IMG/VR virus record: IMGVR_UViG_2576861193_000002
DNA length: 64,000 nt
From: a virus
Lineage: Duplodnaviria > Heunggongvirae > Uroviricota > Caudoviricetes
Direction: 5' to 3' (one strand)
Below the pieces are notes generated by a model. That model ran no database searches. It saw nothing but the letters and a program-made list of their open reading frames with translations, and had not been told where the DNA came from. Numbering within the stretch: position 1 is the first letter of the stretch; the number at the start of each line of letters is the position of its first letter. The position numbers were made by a program, and so were the translations under genes. This document shows, piece after piece, positions 9,950 to 63,099 of the stretch.

Positions 9950-10036
9950 ATGGAAAACAACAAATCTGCACATTACGCTCCTTTTTTATCTGTAATACTT
10001 TTTGTTTTTTGCTGTGTATGGGCATTATTTTTATAA
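9950..10036 (+). CDS. candidate 28-aa hydrophobic small protein
   Basis: ATG preceded by SD aaggtgag; MENNKSAHYAPFLSVILFVFCCVWALFL; AT-rich intergenic region next to hok. Confidence 0.3.
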   Translation: MENNKSAHYAPFLSVILFVFCCVWALFL

Positions 10037-58163: not shown

Positions 58164-59648
58164 TTAAAATCCGCGCAGGCGCTTAGGTAACATAAGGCCT
58201 ATAGCTTGAGGCTGACTCAATTCAGTGATGCCCCACACCATAGCGTCGAGTCGGTCCGGGGATTTTTTGGCGGTAGCTGGCACGTATTCCATCATTTGAT
58301 TTTCCAGCGTGTACAGTTCGCCAGTGTGAGCGACCTTGCCTTGCGCATACAATGCGGATATTGGTTCCGCGCGGGCAAACTTACCCTTACTGGCGTGAAC
58401 CTTAACGATACGACCATCAAAGCGAGCATTGCGTAAGGTTGCCTCCGCCATGTCGCCGCCCTGGTTGGTTTCGATAACTATCGCATCAGCTTCGTGGATC
58501 TTGTAAGCGCGTATTGCAGTTTGCGCCCAATCGTTAGGCGACATGCGGCCTGAATAGTCACCATCAACAGAATACTGAGCATTCTTGCCGCCACCATAGG
58601 CGGAACATGCCACGATCCCGGTTTCGTCAGACTCATCAGATGACGTTGTCGCCGGGTCGATGGCTATCACAGTGCGGATCTTGTCCTGCGTTATCTGCAT
58701 CCGGTGCGCTGCGGTTATCATGGCTTCAGTCCACAATGCACCATCTTCGTCGAATTTACGCGGGCGCTGCATGTACTGGGCTTCAAATGACCGCCTGTGT
58801 GCTTTCAGTCCAGCTTCATGGGCGTCATTGTGCTTTTTAGGCCATAGCCAGCCATCTGGCAGGTTGTGAGCGATAGGGATGGCGAACTCGTTTTCAGGGT
58901 ACAGATCCCAGTAGTCCAGGCTATTGTCTATCTTCACTGGCAGGTTAAGGTGATACCATTTCTCACCACTCCCACCGCGTAGCAGGTAGCCGGACAAATC
59001 ATCATAGTGGATGCGCTGCATGATGACGATGACAGGCGTTGTTTGCACTGCCAGACGTGAAGCAAGTGTGTCGTTATAATTGGTGTTTACCTGCTTTCTC
59101 ACCACGTCAGAGTAAGCGTCAGCGGGTTTCAATGGGTCGTCTATGATTAACGCGCCGTTAAATCCTGATTCCATGTACCCAGCACGGAACCCAGTTACCT
59201 GGCCAAGCGATGACGTTGCATACACGCCGCCACCGTATTCAGTCCACCACATCGATTTACTGTTGGCATCGTTGCGGATCTTCATGGGCCACATTGCCTG
59301 ATATTCAGGCGTACAGATCATGTTTCTTACAGTCGAGGAGTTGAGTAGCGCCAGGTTGTTGGAATAGGAAACGTGAAGGAATCTTGTGCGGGGATTTATT
59401 GCGAGGGACCGCGCCATCATGTTGATAGTCGCGATCATGGTTTTACCGTACCCTGGGGGAATATTAATGATGAGGCGGGTGATCTCACCATTAATAACGC
59501 GTTGCAGTGCATCACGGATGGCTAAATGATGGCCTGAGATTAACATCTTCGTTCCGTTCGCTTGTTTATAGAAATAGCGATTGAAAAACAGGCCATCGTT
59601 TTCACATTTGGACTGAATAACTCGTTCTTTGATTGTCAGCATAATCAC
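58164..59648 (-). CDS. terminase large subunit
   Basis: 494 aa; Walker A-like PPGYGKT; C-terminal nuclease acidic motifs. Confidence 0.9.
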   Translation of the reverse strand: MIMLTIKERVIQSKCENDGLFFNRYFYKQANGTKMLISGHHLAIRDALQRVINGEITRLIINIPPGYGKTMIATINMMARSLAINPRTRFLHVSYSNNLALLNSSTVRNMICTPEYQAMWPMKIRNDANSKSMWWTEYGGGVYATSSLGQVTGFRAGYMESGFNGALIIDDPLKPADAYSDVVRKQVNTNYNDTLASRLAVQTTPVIVIMQRIHYDDLSGYLLRGGSGEKWYHLNLPVKIDNSLDYWDLYPENEFAIPIAHNLPDGWLWPKKHNDAHEAGLKAHRRSFEAQYMQRPRKFDEDGALWTEAMITAAHRMQITQDKIRTVIAIDPATTSSDESDETGIVACSAYGGGKNAQYSVDGDYSGRMSPNDWAQTAIRAYKIHEADAIVIETNQGGDMAEATLRNARFDGRIVKVHASKGKFARAEPISALYAQGKVAHTGELYTLENQMMEYVPATAKKSPDRLDAMVWGITELSQPQAIGLMLPKRLRGF

Positions 59649-60130
59649 ACCTCATCTTCTACTTCCTGAACGATGCGGGCGATCTCTTCTTTCGTGACTT
59701 CAACCCGGACGGGTGCTTCTTCCCTGTTGCCGACGATCTCCTGTGTGACGCGTTCACCATATTTACGCGGTTGCAGTTTTGCCAGTAGCCATTTACGCGT
59801 TTCAATCATCAGTTGATGGCGGCGGCACTCATCTTTGTCGATGTTCTCCGCTGCGTCGGCTATGTCGATAATCTCATCAGCTAATACCTCAAAACCGATC
59901 TCTTTCGCGCGTATGTACATGTCCGAGAACTCTGGCACGTCTCTGAACCATTTAAGAATTGTTGAACGCGCAGGCATATCAGGCATCTTAGAAATTTTGT
60001 TAATGCTCTGACCGTCCGCAACCAGCTCACAGATCTCTAATGCCTTTTCTTCGGTATAACCATGCGGACGGCCCACCTTTTTAGCTGCTGGCTTTTTATC
60101 GTCAGCCTTTGCCTTTTTAGTGCGGGCCAT
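59645..60130 (-). CDS. terminase small subunit
   Basis: 161 aa; N-terminal HTH (…LEICELVADGQSINKISKM…); overlaps large subunit start. Confidence 0.7.
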   Translation of the reverse strand: MARTKKAKADDKKPAAKKVGRPHGYTEEKALEICELVADGQSINKISKMPDMPARSTILKWFRDVPEFSDMYIRAKEIGFEVLADEIIDIADAAENIDKDECRRHQLMIETRKWLLAKLQPRKYGERVTQEIVGNREEAPVRVEVTKEEIARIVQEVEDEV

Positions 60131-60293
60131 AATTCACCTCTTAAAATTTATTCACTATATATAAACACTCGATTAATGTTGCGAAGTATATTGATACACC
60201 CAACCAACTTGATGGATATTTCATTGTCTGCCATTCTCTTTCTTTGGCTTACTAAGTTTAGGAAGCGCATAAAATGCGCGTCCAAGCCATAAC

Positions 60294-60362
60294 CTATTGA
60301 GTCAGCGCGGCCATGGTAAGAACAATCGCAACGATCAGGAAAAAGAAATCAAGCCATTTCAT
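60294..60362 (-). CDS. mini-ORF 1 (22 aa hydrophobic peptide)
   Basis: MKWLDFFFLIVAIVLTMAALTQ; SD aggtga. Confidence 0.4.
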   Translation of the reverse strand: MKWLDFFFLIVAIVLTMAALTQ

Positions 60363-60378
60363 TTTAATCACCTGCGAT

Positions 60379-60450
60379 TCAACTAAGATTTAAAATCACC
60401 GCAATAACAACGATCACTACAATCATGCAAAAGAAGTCTGCTTCTTTCAT
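60379..60450 (-). CDS. mini-ORF 2 (23 aa hydrophobic peptide)
   Basis: MKEADFFCMIVVIVVIAVILNLS; SD gaggg. Confidence 0.4.
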   Translation of the reverse strand: MKEADFFCMIVVIVVIAVILNLS

Positions 60451-60455
60451 CTTTT

Positions 60456-60527
60456 TAACCCTCGATAGAAATCAACGGCAATGACTGCAATAACAGCCAC
60501 CAGCAAAAGCATTTCGTATGCGTTCAT
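60456..60527 (-). CDS. mini-ORF 3 (23 aa hydrophobic peptide)
   Basis: MNAYEMLLLVAVIAVIAVDFYRG; SD gaagg. Confidence 0.4.
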
Positions 60528-60537
60528 GTGAATACCT

Positions 60538-60612
60538 TCAGCTTTCGATGAATATCATTATCGCCAGCCATACAGCGACGCATAAAGAAAGGATAACGAG
60601 CGGGTCAATCAT
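60538..60612 (-). CDS. mini-ORF 4 (24 aa hydrophobic peptide)
   Basis: MIDPLVILSLCVAVWLAIMIFIES; starts 2 nt after stop of HExxH gene. Confidence 0.4.
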   Translation of the reverse strand: MIDPLVILSLCVAVWLAIMIFIES

Positions 60613-60614
60613 AA

Positions 60615-61157
60615 TCAGCCTCGTTTAAAGCTCATAACACGCGGTACAAGCGCCTCTTTTGCTTTCTGCTTACGTTTGCCTTTCTTCGCTGGTTTTTCTT
60701 CTTCCTTCGGCTGCTCTGCCTGCTCTAATGCCTGATCGACGACTTCAGCCGCCTGCATTGCCGCCACCCGTGCTTCATTTGATTCTGCCAGGATGGGGAA
60801 GAAAGCATCAAAGATACGGCCTACCATGTAAGCGTATGTCTCATTTGCAGGGTGGCTCGGATCTGTAGTGGCAACGACGCCTACATCACTTAATACGTGA
60901 AACGTCGTGTGGGCCGCCTCATGTACCAGCGTTCCTAACTCATTGTCGAATACTGCGATCACGTAGAAGTTACCGCCTTTCTCGCCAGTGCAAGTAAGCG
61001 TCAATCCTCCTGCCAGTTCGAAATCAGGTTCGATTGGTACTCCTGCCTTTTCGCAAAATTCATAAAACATCTCGCGGGTCGGGCAAAAGAAAACTGTTGT
61101 ATGCTCAAAGAGCGGGACTTTGAATTGAGGCAACTTAATGCCTTTAGCCTTAGCCAT
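60615..61157 (-). CDS. hypothetical protein with HExxH motif (putative zinc metallopeptidase-like)
   Basis: 180 aa; …GTLVHEAAHTTFHVL…; Lys-rich C-terminal tail. Confidence 0.5.
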   Translation of the reverse strand: MAKAKGIKLPQFKVPLFEHTTVFFCPTREMFYEFCEKAGVPIEPDFELAGGLTLTCTGEKGGNFYVIAVFDNELGTLVHEAAHTTFHVLSDVGVVATTDPSHPANETYAYMVGRIFDAFFPILAESNEARVAAMQAAEVVDQALEQAEQPKEEEKPAKKGKRKQKAKEALVPRVMSFKRG

Positions 61158-61436
61158 CAGAATATTCCTCTATCCTGAAAAATATAACCCCCGCAAAACT
61201 CGACACCGCAGGGAGTGAAAACAGCTATAAAACACTGAAAACGGCGCTGTGTGAGTACCGTTTACAGAATTTTATAAAACTGTAGAATGGCGCTTTCTTC
61301 TACCCAGGTAGCGCCTGACCTGTTAATGGGACTGTTGATCCGGTATTACGTGTTTTTGACTTTTCCGCCGTCGCTCGCGGGAAGGATTGGCCCGGTTATG
61401 GCTGGCTGGCAGAAACGGCGACACGTCCACGCGCTG

Positions 61437-61907
61437 TTATTCTTTGCGTAAGCACTGCGTTTTGATGTAGTCCTGTAGCCCTACGATCTGAGCGTCTTTC
61501 GTTTTTAGTTGTTCTCTGAGGGATAGATAAGCCGATTCAGCGTCGGGAGTGAGTCTACAGGCGGCTCTATCAATGCTGCTGGCGGTTCCGGAGGAGTCTG
61601 ACACTCGCACGGGTATTGCGTTGACGCGCAGCCTGATAGTGCCGTTATCAATGCCAGTGCGCAGATCGGCAATGTCAGATCTGATAGCTTTAATCTCATC
61701 GTGATACCTCTTATCAAGTTTTGACAGTTCGGCGTTTCGCTCCTTCATCTGCTGAATAGTGTTACTTGCTGTTTTCAGTGCGCCTTGCGTGGTCGTTAAT
61801 TCTTCCTGTAACCTTGTCGCCTCACTCTGGTAATGGCATGTCACGGCTGTAAGACTGGCAATGATGCAAACAACAGCGGCGATAATTAACGCCTTCACCT
61901 TGTCCAT
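61437..61907 (-). CDS. Rz-like i-spanin
   Basis: N-terminal TM + coiled coil periplasmic domain; embedded Rz1. Confidence 0.75.
   Translation of the reverse strand: MDKVKALIIAAVVCIIASLTAVTCHYQSEATRLQEELTTTQGALKTASNTIQQMKERNAELSKLDKRYHDEIKAIRSDIADLRTGIDNGTIRLRVNAIPVRVSDSSGTASSIDRAACRLTPDAESAYLSLREQLKTKDAQIVGLQDYIKTQCLRKE
61505..61699 (-). CDS. Rz1-like o-spanin lipoprotein (embedded)
   Basis: Lipobox LSGC; proline-rich (PPEPPAALIEPP). Confidence 0.7.
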   Translation of the reverse strand: MRLKLSDLTLPICALALITALSGCASTQYPCECQTPPEPPAALIEPPVDSLPTLNRLIYPSENN

Positions 61908-62416
61908 GTTCCCCCCTCGCAACCCATCGAAGGTGCATATTCACCATAGAAAAAGTTTTCCGCCAAAATGCGAGCCGCGATCGCTTCGTCCAGTGAATAA
62001 AACAAGCCAATACATATGCGTTTACCGTCATTGTCGGTAATCCTTACCCGCCATTTAGGCTTGCTCCGCTCTGTTTTGTGGTAGGTAACACCCCTAAATC
62101 CAGATGATGTATGAGGGGTAAGGTGTTTTTTATTCATGCTGTTATGCGTATCGTCTACTTCTCGCAAGTTTATAATCCTGTTATCGTGTTTTATCCCATT
62201 GATATGATCGATATCCTTTTCAGGCCATACTCCATAATGGAAAAACCACGCAAGGCGATGCGCTTTATATCTTCCTATGTATATATATCCGCTTTTATGC
62301 TTAAACCCTGCCACACTACCAGCCTTAATCCTCCCGTGAGGACTAATCTTATAGGTAAAAACACCTGTTTCTGGATCATAGTGCAGCTTTCGTTTTAGCT
62401 CATCATCACTTTTCAT
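61895..62416 (-). CDS. HNH homing endonuclease (HNH_3-type), paralog of 41236-41802
   Basis: 173 aa; motif IDHINGIKHDNRIINLR; inserted between endolysin and Rz. Confidence 0.75.
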   Translation of the reverse strand: MKSDDELKRKLHYDPETGVFTYKISPHGRIKAGSVAGFKHKSGYIYIGRYKAHRLAWFFHYGVWPEKDIDHINGIKHDNRIINLREVDDTHNSMNKKHLTPHTSSGFRGVTYHKTERSKPKWRVRITDNDGKRICIGLFYSLDEAIAARILAENFFYGEYAPSMGCEGGTWTR

Positions 62417-62898: not shown

Positions 62899-63099
62899 TT
62901 ACTTATTCCCCATTCGCGCGTCGTGTTCCTCTTGCGCTCGCTTGTTCTCCTGTGATTTGAAATAATAGTTAACGGCAAATGTGCCAATGGTTGATAAGAT
63001 ACCCACAAAGACGGCAACGTCATTGATGGTTATCGCGCCGAAAAAAGCAGTTACGGCCCCAGTCACATACGCACACGCCGCCCGTATTCTGTCGAACAT
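62899..63099 (-). CDS. holin
   Basis: 66 aa, two TM segments, charged C-terminus; SD ggagg; stop overlaps endolysin start. Confidence 0.7.
   Translation of the reverse strand: MFDRIRAACAYVTGAVTAFFGAITINDVAVFVGILSTIGTFAVNYYFKSQENKRAQEEHDARMGNK

What the first reader, a model, noticed from the sequence alone, without database searches (positions are those of the whole stretch)
60294..60612. Array of four tandem mini-ORFs encoding paralogous 22-24 aa hydrophobic peptides upstream of the small terminase
Four back-to-back ORFs on the late strand, each with its own SD and single-digit to 16-nt spacing, encode single-TM peptides sharing an M-(K/N)-x-x-(D/E)-F/M-hydrophobic pattern. The first starts 2 nt after the stop of the HExxH protein gene. 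Tandem paralogous membrane micro-proteins in a late operon are unusual and could be membrane-active (holin-modulating, type I toxin-like or exclusion) peptides. All are below standard ORF-calling thresholds.
Basis: seen in the sequence. Interest (0 to 1): 0.7.

Follow-up and report, generated by a model that had tools for sequence, protein, structure and literature searches.

The report
Hypervariable array of phage membrane microprotein genes
The four tiny hydrophobic reading frames are real, conserved genes, and a fifth was missed; together they are the smallest version of a fast-changing row of 3-13 unannotated single-helix membrane microprotein genes found just before the DNA-packaging genes in every known member of a common group of gut E. 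coli phages, with function still unknown.

Summary
Observation confirmed and extended. On the minus strand, between a HExxH-motif gene (60615-61157) and the small terminase gene (59645-60130), lie five tightly packed mini-genes of 22-27 codons, not four. Four of the five have a Shine-Dalgarno site; the fifth has only a weak one. Each encodes one hydrophobic helix. Chance is excluded: 4 qualifying ORFs were observed, against 0 in 1988 and 1 in 12 of 2000 dinucleotide shuffles.

The window is an mEp021-type (mEpimmI) coliphage. All 62 related loci examined fill the same gap with 3-13 such ORFs: 562 in total, 558 with ATG starts, 510 with an SD, median 93% of the gap covered. There are about 20 peptide types in strictly conserved order, forming 40 architectures.

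Frames are intact in 59/59, 54/55 and 56/58 homologous segments, with no frameshifts. Variable sites concentrate at third codon positions, and pN/pS is 0.13-0.28, like the neighbouring genes.

No family, RNA or promoter match was found, and RefSeq leaves the region mostly unannotated.

Best reading: late-operon, translationally coupled, N-out/C-in inner-membrane microproteins that diversify by unequal recombination. Their function is inferred only, most likely accessory modulation of host or phage membrane proteins. Type I toxin, holin, pac-site and pseudogene readings are not supported.

The parts
60615..61157 (-). Upstream gene: 180-aa HExxH-motif protein (phrog_1365, function unknown). Its last codons carry the SD for the first mini-ORF.
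   Evidence: The ORF is. It matches phrog_1365 at E=3.5e-30. H79-E80-x-x-H83 and N105-E106 are invariant in 20 homologues. In all 62 loci the first mini-ORF starts about 2 nt after its stop, whichever peptide family occupies that slot.
60538..60612 (-). m1 (family C/f03): 24-aa single-helix microprotein gene, MIDPLVILSLCVAVWLAIMIFIES. SD GAGG at 60619-60622.
   Evidence: Sequence. All 59 of 59 homologous segments keep an intact ORF of the same length, across 27 DNA haplotypes. Variable sites by codon position 1/2/3 are 7/4/15 and pN/pS is 0.28. Present in 59/62 loci.
60447..60527 (-). m2 (family F/f02): 26-aa microprotein gene, MNAYEMLLLVAVIAVIAVDFYRGLKR, with an acidic N-end and a basic C-end. 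SD GAAGG at 60535-60539, overlapping the m1 stop.
   Evidence: Sequence. 54/55 homologous segments are intact at the same length, and the other is extended rather than broken. Codon positions 5/5/17, pN/pS 0.26. Present in 59/62 loci.
60379..60450 (-). m3 (family G): 23-aa microprotein gene, MKEADFFCMIVVIVVIAVILNLS. Its ATG overlaps the m2 stop (ATGA). SD GAGGG at 60459-60463.
   Evidence: Sequence. Paralogue of m4 and of family K (0 of 2000 shuffles reach the observed score). Present in 25/62 loci. The 72-nt MRE-start class, which mixes G and K variants, has pN/pS 0.41.
60294..60362 (-). m4 (family H): 22-aa microprotein gene, MKWLDFFFLIVAIVLTMAALTQ, from the ATG at 60362. SD AGGTG at 60369-60373.
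   Evidence: Sequence. 56/58 homologous segments are intact at the same length, and the other 2 are one codon shorter. Codon positions 8/4/14, pN/pS 0.13. Present in 58/62 loci.
60141..60224 (-). m5 (family N2, a variant of f04): 27-aa less hydrophobic microprotein gene, MKYPSSWLGVSIYFATLIECLYIVNKF. Its TAA stop abuts the TerS SD (TAAGAGGTG).
   Evidence: Sequence. All 6 homologous segments are intact, across 4 haplotypes. Significantly similar to f04, MKELFDWLEVLTYCASFVACVYIINKY. f04 has pN/pS 0.07. An f04 or N2 member is the last ORF in 62/62 loci. Its own SD is weak (AATGG where f04 has AAGGG).
59645..60130 (-). Downstream gene: small terminase subunit (Sf6-type), 10 nt after m5.
   Evidence: Pfam PF20901 Sf6_terminase at 2.8e-37 and phrog_1482 at 1.9e-49.

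Best explanation
The region is a real, essentially unannotated stretch of the late operon of an mEp021-type (mEpimmI) temperate coliphage.

Shown:
- It holds five back-to-back genes for 22-27-residue peptides, each consisting of little more than one hydrophobic helix.
- It is the minimal form (types C-F-G-H-N2) of a hypervariable array. The array has strictly conserved order and contains 3-13 such genes drawn from about 20 peptide types (16 families by 50%-identity clustering).
- The array fills the gap between a HExxH-motif gene and the small terminase gene in every relative examined.
- The frames are conserved under purifying selection.

Inferred from anatomy:
- The genes have no promoter of their own and are transcribed with the late genes.
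- Ribosomes pass from the HExxH gene through the array to TerS by translational coupling or re-initiation. Spacings are -14 to +18 nt, with ATGA overlaps, and each SD is embedded in the preceding gene's 3' end.
- The peptides are too short to emerge from the ribosome before termination, so they insert post-translationally into the inner membrane. The acidic N-end would face the periplasm and the neutral or basic C-end the cytoplasm, a topology like that of Pf3 coat protein.
- The array expands and contracts by unequal recombination between the similar 5' ends of paralogous cassettes.

Inferred function (about 0.3 confidence for any specific role):
- They are accessory microproteins that bind other membrane proteins helix to helix late in infection.
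- Given the rapid turnover of gene content next to a nearly invariant holin, the targets are more likely variable host membrane components (defence or exclusion-related) than the phage's own holin.
For: - Chance is excluded.
- The window's relatives are the mEp021, mEp515, mEp013, mEp044, mEp554, mEp010 and MagusPhagus phages, about 35 E. coli prophages and 47 IMG/VR contigs.
- All 62 loci have the array: 562 ORFs, 558 ATG starts, 510 with an SD, median 93% of the gap covered, and 96% of spacings between -14 and +18.
- A test based on nucleotide homology, not ORF calling, finds frames intact in 59/59 (m1), 54/55 (m2) and 56/58 (m4) segments, with no frameshift.
- Variable sites by codon position sum to 20/13/46 for m1, m2 and m4, with pN/pS 0.28, 0.26 and 0.13. 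Other array families give 0.07-0.41. For comparison, TerS gives 0.17 and HExxH 0.09.
- There are 40 colinear architectures among 62 loci. Loci whose flanking genes are 95-99.5% identical never share an architecture (0 of 23 pairs), whereas 10 of 11 pairs share one at 99.5% or more.
- Junction contexts show exchange between paralogue 5' ends. Paralogy is significant for m3, m4 and K, for m2 with D2 and I, and for m5 with f04.
- Topology signals: 183/203 distinct peptides have D or E at residues 2-7. In 169/213 the C-terminal flank is more positive than the N-terminal flank.
- No sigma-70-like promoter lies on the coding strand between 59600 and 61950.
- The holin has only 15 near-identical variants in 60 loci.
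- Plaque-forming phages carry arrays of 5 to about 12 genes.
Against: - There is no direct evidence of translation or of membrane localisation. No Ribo-seq, mass-spectrometry or tagging data were found for these phages. The mEpimmI paper, PMC11893012, analysed virion proteins only and does not mention these ORFs.
- No homology to any characterised protein was found, so the function is pure inference.
- m1, m3 and m4 lack a basic C-terminal flank, so their orientation is less certain.
- The sampled loci are closely related, all E. coli with about 85-98% flank identity. Conservation is therefore shallow, and the haplotypes are not independent.
- Late expression is not typical of anti-defence or exclusion genes.
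- m5 in this window has a weak SD and lower hydrophobicity.
Confidence: 0.75

Rival explanations
1. Translational relay. The mini-ORFs matter only as a chain of coupled short ORFs that carries, and progressively attenuates, ribosome flux from the HExxH gene to the small terminase gene. This would set the TerS level, and the peptides themselves would be by-products.
For: - Coupling is unbroken from the HExxH stop (+2) to the TerS SD, which abuts the stop of the last ORF (TAAGAGGTG), in most loci.
- The array is never absent (62/62).
- The number of ORFs varies freely among viable phages.
Against: - Amino-acid sequences are under purifying selection, with pN/pS 0.07-0.41 and a third-position excess. 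A pure relay would not require that.
- Every unit encodes a hydrophobic helix, and most have an acidic N-cap.
- Several loci, including this window, have 60-165 nt uncoupled gaps before TerS.
Confidence: 0.08
2. Membrane-damaging toxin-like peptides, working like type I toxins, pinholins or viroporins. They would accumulate late, depolarise the inner membrane and so trigger or advance holin firing, or act as abortive or killing factors.
For: - Their size, hydrophobicity and tandem paralogy resemble the Ibs, Ldr and ZorO toxins. Tandem repetition of short TM ORFs was used as a search criterion for such toxins in PMC2887945.
- They sit downstream of the lysis cassette on the same strand.
- Family L (47 aa, absent from this window) has a weak similarity to a holin PHROG, E=0.04.
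Against: - Units are only 70-100 nt with spacings of -14 to +18 nt. That leaves no room for the unit-specific promoter, structured 5'UTR and antisense sRNA that define type I loci.
- No Rfam family matches.
- No Pfam, NCUfam-type or PADLOC match was found: specifically Pfam, NCBIfam and PADLOC all gave nothing.
- A bona fide class II holin, an endolysin and spanins are already present upstream. They are separated from the array by an annotated terminator and the HExxH gene.
- Uncontrolled depolarisers would fire the holin prematurely.
Confidence: 0.1
3. Prophage-expressed morons for superinfection exclusion or host fitness. In this reading the peptides are made in the lysogen and block DNA entry or modify envelope functions, like HK97 gp15, T4 Imm or P22 SieA.
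For: - They lie in a variable accessory slot between the lysis and packaging genes.
- Homologues of the neighbouring HExxH gene sit in accessory regions of P22-like phages, including next to sieA in P22.
- Gene content turns over fast.
Against: - The scan found no promoter-like site on the coding strand and no convincing terminator separating the array from TerS.
- The genes are translationally coupled to the neighbouring late genes.
- The mEpimmI paper attributes superinfection exclusion in this group to lipoproteins encoded elsewhere.
Confidence: 0.06
4. Not genes at all. The region would be a packaging (pac or cos) site or other cis element with incidental ORFs, or the decayed fragments of a multi-pass membrane protein gene.
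For: - It lies immediately upstream of the terminase genes.
- The coding strand is T-rich, 34% T.
Against: - Substitutions follow a codon-position pattern in the predicted frames, with no frameshifts across dozens of haplotypes.
- SD and ATG are conserved at each unit.
- Array length ranges from 318 to 1228 nt through whole-cassette gains and losses, which is incompatible with a fixed cis site.
- TerS is Sf6-type. In P22 and Sf6 the pac site lies inside the terminase gene region (own knowledge).
- A concatenated-peptide query against 5.8 billion proteins found no polytopic homologue. It returned only two artefactual gene calls that read TGA as tryptophan.
Confidence: 0.02

Closest known systems
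Bacterial small inner-membrane regulatory proteins (e.g. AcrZ, MgrB, MgtS, CydX of E. coli; own knowledge; reviewed in PMC12648545)
   Same: They are under 50 aa with a single TM helix and are usually missed by annotation. They act by binding larger membrane proteins within the bilayer. This is the closest model for how the peptides probably work.
   Different: Those are single, dispersed chromosomal genes with their own regulation. Here 3-13 genes form one tightly coupled, rapidly reshuffled array inside a phage late operon. No sequence homology was found.
Type I toxin-antitoxin toxins encoded in tandem (Ibs/Sib, Ldr/Rdl, ZorO/OrzO; Fozo et al. 2010, PMC2887945)
   Same: Very short hydrophobic TM peptides, duplicated in tandem in one intergenic region and missed by gene callers.
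   Different: In type I loci each repeat carries its own promoter, long 5'UTR and antisense sRNA, and similarity extends beyond the coding region. Here the units are 70-100 nt, are translationally coupled and have neither promoter nor sRNA. No family match was found.
Phage lysis-timing membrane proteins (lambda S107 antiholin, T4 RI, P2 LysA/LysB, small TM proteins of the Mu lysis cassette; own knowledge)
   Same: Small phage-encoded TM proteins made late, on the same strand as and near the lysis genes. They could act through TM-TM contacts with the holin.
   Different: Those are encoded within or adjacent to the holin-endolysin cassette, and usually as one or two genes. Here the array is separated from the lysis genes by a terminator and another gene and abuts the terminase. 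It is highly variable while the holin is almost invariant. No PHROG lysis family matches m1-m5.
Pf3 coat protein and M13 procoat type membrane insertion (own knowledge)
   Same: A short acidic N-terminal tail, one hydrophobic helix and, for m2 and several other families, a basic C-terminal tail. This predicts N-out/C-in insertion without Sec.
   Different: Those are virion coat proteins of filamentous phages, 44-73 aa long. Here the peptides are 22-27 aa with no structural role suggested. m1, m3 and m4 lack the basic C-tail.
Superinfection-exclusion membrane proteins (HK97 gp15, T4 Imm/Sp, P22 SieA; own knowledge)
   Same: Phage accessory inner-membrane proteins in variable genome slots.
   Different: Those are larger, single genes expressed from the prophage or early in infection. 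Here no independent promoter was found, and the genes sit in a late operon.

Membership tests
Type I toxin-antitoxin toxin (Ibs/Ldr/Hok/TisB/ZorO type) | Short (<70 aa) peptide with one predicted TM helix | tested here: met
   The peptides are 22-27 aa. The 15-residue hydropathy maximum is 2.9-3.6 for m1-m4.
Type I toxin-antitoxin toxin (Ibs/Ldr/Hok/TisB/ZorO type) | Each unit has its own promoter and long structured 5'UTR, and repeat similarity extends beyond the ORF | tested here: not met
   Spacings between ORFs are -14 to +18 nt. No sigma-70-like site lies on the coding strand in 59600-61950.
Type I toxin-antitoxin toxin (Ibs/Ldr/Hok/TisB/ZorO type) | Antisense or divergent sRNA antitoxin | tested here: not met
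   No Rfam match was found at E<=1. The only promoter-like site on the opposite strand (60191-60220, 9 of 12 matches) lies in the N2 variant segment, which only 6 of 62 loci share. The total number of promoter-like hits is below the shuffle expectation.
Type I toxin-antitoxin toxin (Ibs/Ldr/Hok/TisB/ZorO type) | Sequence membership of a known toxin family | tested here: not met
   No Pfam, NCBIfam, PHROG or PADLOC hit for m1-m5.
Type I toxin-antitoxin toxin (Ibs/Ldr/Hok/TisB/ZorO type) | Toxic when overproduced | not testable with these tools
   This needs an expression experiment.
Holin / antiholin | Encoded in the lysis cassette next to the endolysin | tested here: not met
   Holin (62899-63099), endolysin and Rz/Rz1 lie upstream. 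The array is separated from them by a 280-nt intergenic region with an annotated terminator (mEp021 TERM_6) and by the HExxH gene.
Holin / antiholin | Match to a holin family profile | tested here: not met
   No PHROG or Pfam lysis hit for m1-m5. Only the 47-aa family L, absent from this window, gives a weak E=0.04 match to phrog_920. The true holin matches PF16080.
Holin / antiholin | Alters lysis timing or holin triggering | not testable with these tools
   This needs lysis-curve experiments.
Small N-out/C-in membrane proteins (Pf3-coat-like topology) | Acidic short N-tail, one hydrophobic helix, C-flank more positive than N-flank | tested here: met
   183/203 distinct peptides have D or E at residues 2-7. 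In 169/213 the C-flank is more positive. Within the window this is clear for m2 (-1/+3), while m1, m3 and m4 are weak or neutral.
Small N-out/C-in membrane proteins (Pf3-coat-like topology) | Actual membrane insertion and orientation | not testable with these tools
   This needs fractionation and PhoA/GFP or cysteine-accessibility assays.
Phage packaging site (pac/cos) | Fixed cis sequence recognised by terminase, with virion DNA ends mapping to it | tested here: inconclusive
   DNA ends could not be mapped. The region varies from 318 to 1228 nt by cassette gain and loss and evolves like coding sequence, which argues against this reading.
Class II bacteriocin / microcin precursor cluster | Double-glycine leader, a dedicated ABC exporter with C39 peptidase, and immunity genes nearby | tested here: not met
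   No GG or GA leader motif is present in m1-m5 (sequences). The neighbours are lysis, HExxH and terminase genes only.

The most novel reading that the evidence does not exclude
The array is a rapidly reshuffled 'cassette library' of transmembrane-helix decoys or inhibitors. Each microprotein family would neutralise, by intramembrane helix-helix binding, a different host inner-membrane protein, for example a TM effector of an abortive-infection or defence system, or a membrane protease or channel that would otherwise collapse the membrane before assembly is complete. Unequal recombination among paralogues would then adapt the repertoire to the host population. This would be a new class of phage counter-defence encoded entirely by genes of fewer than 30 codons.
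Probability: 0.15. Interest if true: 0.85.

Novelty: new variant of a known kind. Interest (0 to 1): 0.65.

Why it matters
Small membrane proteins are a recognised but poorly charted class, and phage genomes are thought to hide many. This is a concrete, statistically solid case.

- A whole prevalent group of human-gut coliphages carries up to 13 consecutive microprotein genes, about 20 peptide types in all. RefSeq (PGAP) leaves the region mostly blank, and phage annotators call it inconsistently or in the wrong frame.
- The array is among the fastest-changing parts of these genomes, yet each gene is under purifying selection. That is the signature of accessory genes involved in host interaction.
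- mEp021 and its relatives plate on E. coli K-12, and natural arrays range from 5 to about 12 genes, so function is directly testable.
- The locus offers a tractable model for how very short membrane proteins are translated (coupling chains), inserted and used by viruses.
- It also shows a concrete annotation gap: ORFs under 30 codons, and artefactual gene calls that read through TGA.

Tried and rejected
- **Family searches for the peptides.** Pfam, PHROGs, NCBIfam and PADLOC gave nothing.
- **Large protein database.** A concatenated query returned only two ENA gene calls that read TGA as tryptophan and fuse the array into a single protein.
- **tblastn of the peptides against 50,697 phage records.** Only the seven phages of this group matched, so no analogous homologous array was detected elsewhere.
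- **Rfam and promoter/terminator scans of 59600-61950.** No RNA family matched and no coding-strand promoter was found.
- **HExxH homologues in P22-like phages** (ST64T, P22, HK620). No mini-ORF array follows them, so a functional link between HExxH and the array is not supported outside this group.
- **Lipoprotein reading of m1.** 'LSAC' resembles a lipobox. This was rejected because the -1 residue varies (A, L, S, V) and the N-region is acidic and too short.
- **Co-translational 'mRNA anchoring' to the membrane.** Rejected because 22-27-aa chains terminate while still inside the ribosome exit tunnel (own knowledge).
- **Literature searches.** The mEpimmI paper, microprotein catalogues and the type I toxin literature contain no description of this array.
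Full report
**1. What is in the sequence**

All genes in this part of the window run on the minus strand.

| Feature | Coordinates |
|---|---|
| Holin | 62899-63099 |
| Endolysin | ends about 62406 |
| HNH endonuclease ORF | 61895-62416 |
| Rz / Rz1 | 61437-61922 / 61505-61717 |
| Intergenic region | about 280 nt |
| HExxH-motif protein, 180 aa | 60615-61157 |
| Small terminase (TerS) | 59645-60130 |
| Large terminase | 58164-59648 |

The 484-nt gap between the HExxH gene and TerS holds the reported ORFs.

| ORF | Coordinates | Length | Sequence |
|---|---|---|---|
| m1 | 60538-60612 | 24 aa | MIDPLVILSLCVAVWLAIMIFIES |
| m2 | 60447-60527 | 26 aa | MNAYEMLLLVAVIAVIAVDFYRGLKR |
| m3 | 60379-60450 | 23 aa | MKEADFFCMIVVIVVIAVILNLS |
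| m4 | 60294-60362 | 22 aa | MKWLDFFFLIVAIVLTMAALTQ |

- m1 starts 2 nt after the HExxH stop. m2 follows m1 by 10 nt. m3 overlaps m2 by ATGA. m4 follows m3 by 16 nt.
- Each has an SD 6-8 nt upstream: GAGG, GAAGG, GAGGG and AGGTG.
- A fifth ORF, m5 (60141-60224, 27 aa, MKYPSSWLGVSIYFATLIECLYIVNKF), ends 10 nt before the TerS ATG. Its TAA stop abuts the TerS SD.

**2. More than chance**

ORFs were counted if they had an ATG start, an SD, 20-50 codons and a TM-like hydropathy window.
- The real sequence has 4 such ORFs.
- Of 2000 dinucleotide-preserving shuffles, 1988 gave 0 and 12 gave 1.
- The antisense strand of the region has none.
- These four are the only such ORFs on the entire minus strand of the 64-kb window.

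**3. Identity of the element**

- The region is about 90% identical to the temperate coliphages mEp021, mEp515, mEp013, mEp044, mEp554, mEp010 and MagusPhagus. These belong to the 'mEpimmI' group described in PMC11893012.
- It also matches prophages in 35 of 5,426 complete E. coli genomes.
- A peptide-pattern scan of IMG/VR with the HExxH protein added 47 loci.
- TerS is Sf6-type (PF20901).
- The HExxH protein belongs to phrog_1365, of unknown function.

**4. The array in relatives**

I oriented 62 loci and delimited the HExxH-TerS gap by tblastn. Every gap, 318-1228 nt long, is filled by the same kind of ORFs.
- There are 562 mini-ORFs in total, 3-13 per locus with a median of 9, and lengths of 20-60 aa with a median of 24.
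- 558 start with ATG and 510 have an SD-like motif.
- The ORFs cover a median of 93% of the gap.
- 96% of spacings lie between -14 and +18 nt, with peaks at -4 (ATGA), -8, +2, +8 and +11.
- Clustering at 50% identity gives 16 families. Finer assignment gives about 20 peptide types in a single conserved order: A12 > A7/A15/A16 > B > B14 > D2 > C(m1) > D > M13 > E > F(m2) > G(m3) > H(m4) > I > J > K > L > N(m5).
- There are 40 different presence/absence architectures among the 62 loci.
- The window, mEp021 and mEp515 share the minimal architecture C-F-G-H-N2.
- C, F and H occur in 58-59 of 62 loci, and an N-type ORF is always last.

**5. Are the frames real genes?**

To avoid the bias of looking only at called ORFs, I located homologous DNA segments by blastn and then asked whether the frame survives.

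| ORF | Segments with intact same-length ORF | DNA haplotypes |
|---|---|---|
| m1 | 59/59 | 27 |
| m2 | 54/55 (the other is extended) | 31 |
| m4 | 56/58 (two are one codon shorter) | 33 |

- There are no frameshifts and no internal stops.
- Variable sites by codon position 1/2/3 are 7/4/15, 5/5/17 and 8/4/14. They sum to 20/13/46, a strong third-position excess.
- pN/pS is 0.28, 0.26 and 0.13 for m1, m2 and m4.
- The other families give 0.07-0.41, except family D (f10) at 0.63. This is comparable to TerS (0.17) and HExxH (0.09) in the same loci.

**6. Peptide properties**

- 183 of 203 distinct peptides, in 13 of 16 families, have D or E at residues 2-7, directly before the hydrophobic core.
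- In 169 of 213 the C-terminal flank is more positive than the N-terminal flank.
- By the positive-inside rule this predicts N-out/C-in single-pass insertion. The prediction is clearest for m2 (RGLKR tail) and weaker for m1, m3 and m4.
- At 22-27 residues the chains terminate while still inside the ribosomal tunnel. Insertion must therefore be post-translational, as for other very small membrane proteins (own knowledge).

**7. Paralogy and mode of evolution**

- Composition-preserving permutation tests show that m3, m4 and K are related, that m2 is related to D2 and I, and that m5 is related to f04. In each case 0-1 of 2000 shuffles reached the observed score. m1 has no detectable paralogue.
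- Junction sequences show how content changes:
  - The first slot always uses the same SD, embedded in the HExxH 3' end, whichever family follows.
  - In this window m2 carries the upstream context that family D has in larger arrays. D and m2 both begin MN(I/A)Y(D/E).
  - H follows the tail of m2 directly when G is absent. G and H both begin MK..DFF.
- This is what unequal recombination between similar paralogue 5' ends would produce.
- Turnover is fast. Locus pairs with 95-99.5% identical flanking genes never share an architecture (0 of 23), while 10 of 11 pairs share one at 99.5% or more. The holin upstream is nearly invariant, with 15 close variants in 60 loci.

**8. Expression signals**

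- No sigma-70-like promoter lies on the coding strand and no Rfam family matches in 59600-61950.
- The mEp021 and mEp013 records annotate an intrinsic terminator between Rz and the HExxH gene.
- These phages use N-like antitermination (PMC11893012).
- The most economical reading is late-operon read-through transcription, with translation by coupling along the chain from HExxH through the array to TerS. This step is inferred, not shown.

**9. What it is not**

- **Type I toxin-antitoxin.** Peptide size and tandem repetition fit (Fozo et al. 2010, PMC2887945). The defining architecture is absent: there is no own promoter or 5'UTR per unit, no antisense sRNA, and no family match.
- **Holin or antiholin.** The array is not in the lysis cassette, matches no lysis profile, and a real holin is already present.
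- **Pac or cos site, or a decayed polytopic gene.** The region evolves like coding sequence, has cassette-level length variation, and has no polytopic homologue.
- **Lipoprotein.** The 'LSAC' in m1 is not a conserved lipobox.
- **A functional unit with the HExxH protein.** Homologues in ST64T, P22 and HK620 (36-46% identity) are not followed by such ORFs. The HExxH fold could not be assigned.

**10. State of annotation and literature**

- The mEp021 record annotates nothing in the gap.
- PHANOTATE and Pharokka records call a few ORFs, some in the wrong frame or with extended TTG starts.
- PGAP usually annotates nothing under the array, and in one genome it calls a 129-aa antisense ORF.
- The 5.8-billion protein collection contains no stand-alone calls that the search could detect.
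- The mEpimmI paper does not mention these ORFs.
- I found no description of comparable arrays in the searchable literature. That library is incomplete, so this is absence of evidence only.

**11. Verdict**

These are real membrane microprotein genes and they are partly paralogous.
- Their function is unknown. My best inference is accessory, late-expressed inner-membrane modulators whose gene content is being reshuffled quickly, more likely aimed at variable host membrane components than at the conserved holin.
- In kind, this is a new variant of phage and bacterial small membrane proteins: a hypervariable, translationally coupled array.
- Interest is moderate to high, because the system is prevalent, invisible to annotation and directly testable on E. 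coli K-12.

Noticed in passing
window 61895-62416 (-): A 173-aa HNH_3/AP2-type homing-endonuclease ORF is inserted between the endolysin and Rz. It is absent at this position in mEp021, where Rz directly follows the lysozyme gene. It is present in the metagenomic relative L062 (PF13392). mEp013 has a different HNH insertion between the HExxH gene and the array (L003 3357-3842).
   Followed up: partly
window 9950-10036 (+): A 28-aa ORF, MENNKSAHYAPFLSVILFVFCCVWALFL, with ATG, SD and a TM-like segment. It is one of only two ORFs on the plus strand that meet the mini-ORF criteria, so it may be another unannotated microprotein.
   Followed up: no
L011, L014, L022, L031, L036, L040, L049 (gap of about 165 nt before TerS): Some relatives carry an additional hydrophilic ORF of about 47 aa (MNDEELKIADEIRKALDSAENNETIYLSEQEVEKMMSEFKLRFGKDD) between the last mini-ORF and TerS. 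It is not present in the window.
   Followed up: no
L013 2308-2697 (minus strand of locus); L002 3555-3653; L003 4347-4502: Existing annotations over the array are inconsistent. PGAP calls a 129-aa antisense ORF (E3165_RS14545) in E. coli LSU61. PHANOTATE calls wrong-frame or TTG-extended ORFs in mEp515, mEp013 and mEp044.
   Followed up: partly
P0121, P0122 (ENA metagenome proteins): Two database 'proteins' of 165-166 aa are read-through artefacts. TGA is translated as W, apparently under genetic code 4, which fuses several mini-ORFs and out-of-frame stretches of the array.
   Followed up: yes
window 60615-61157 (-); L063 2001-2390; L064 2001-2333; L065 2001-2366: The HExxH protein has shorter homologues of about 129 aa (36-46% identity, without the Lys-rich C-terminal tail) in P22-like phages. 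These are ST64T gp49 between Rz and Dec/TerS, HK620 hkcC, and an unannotated frame next to the sieA promoter in P22. It looks like a mobile accessory gene of unknown function, and one nr entry labels it 'PolyVal metallopeptidase'.
   Followed up: partly
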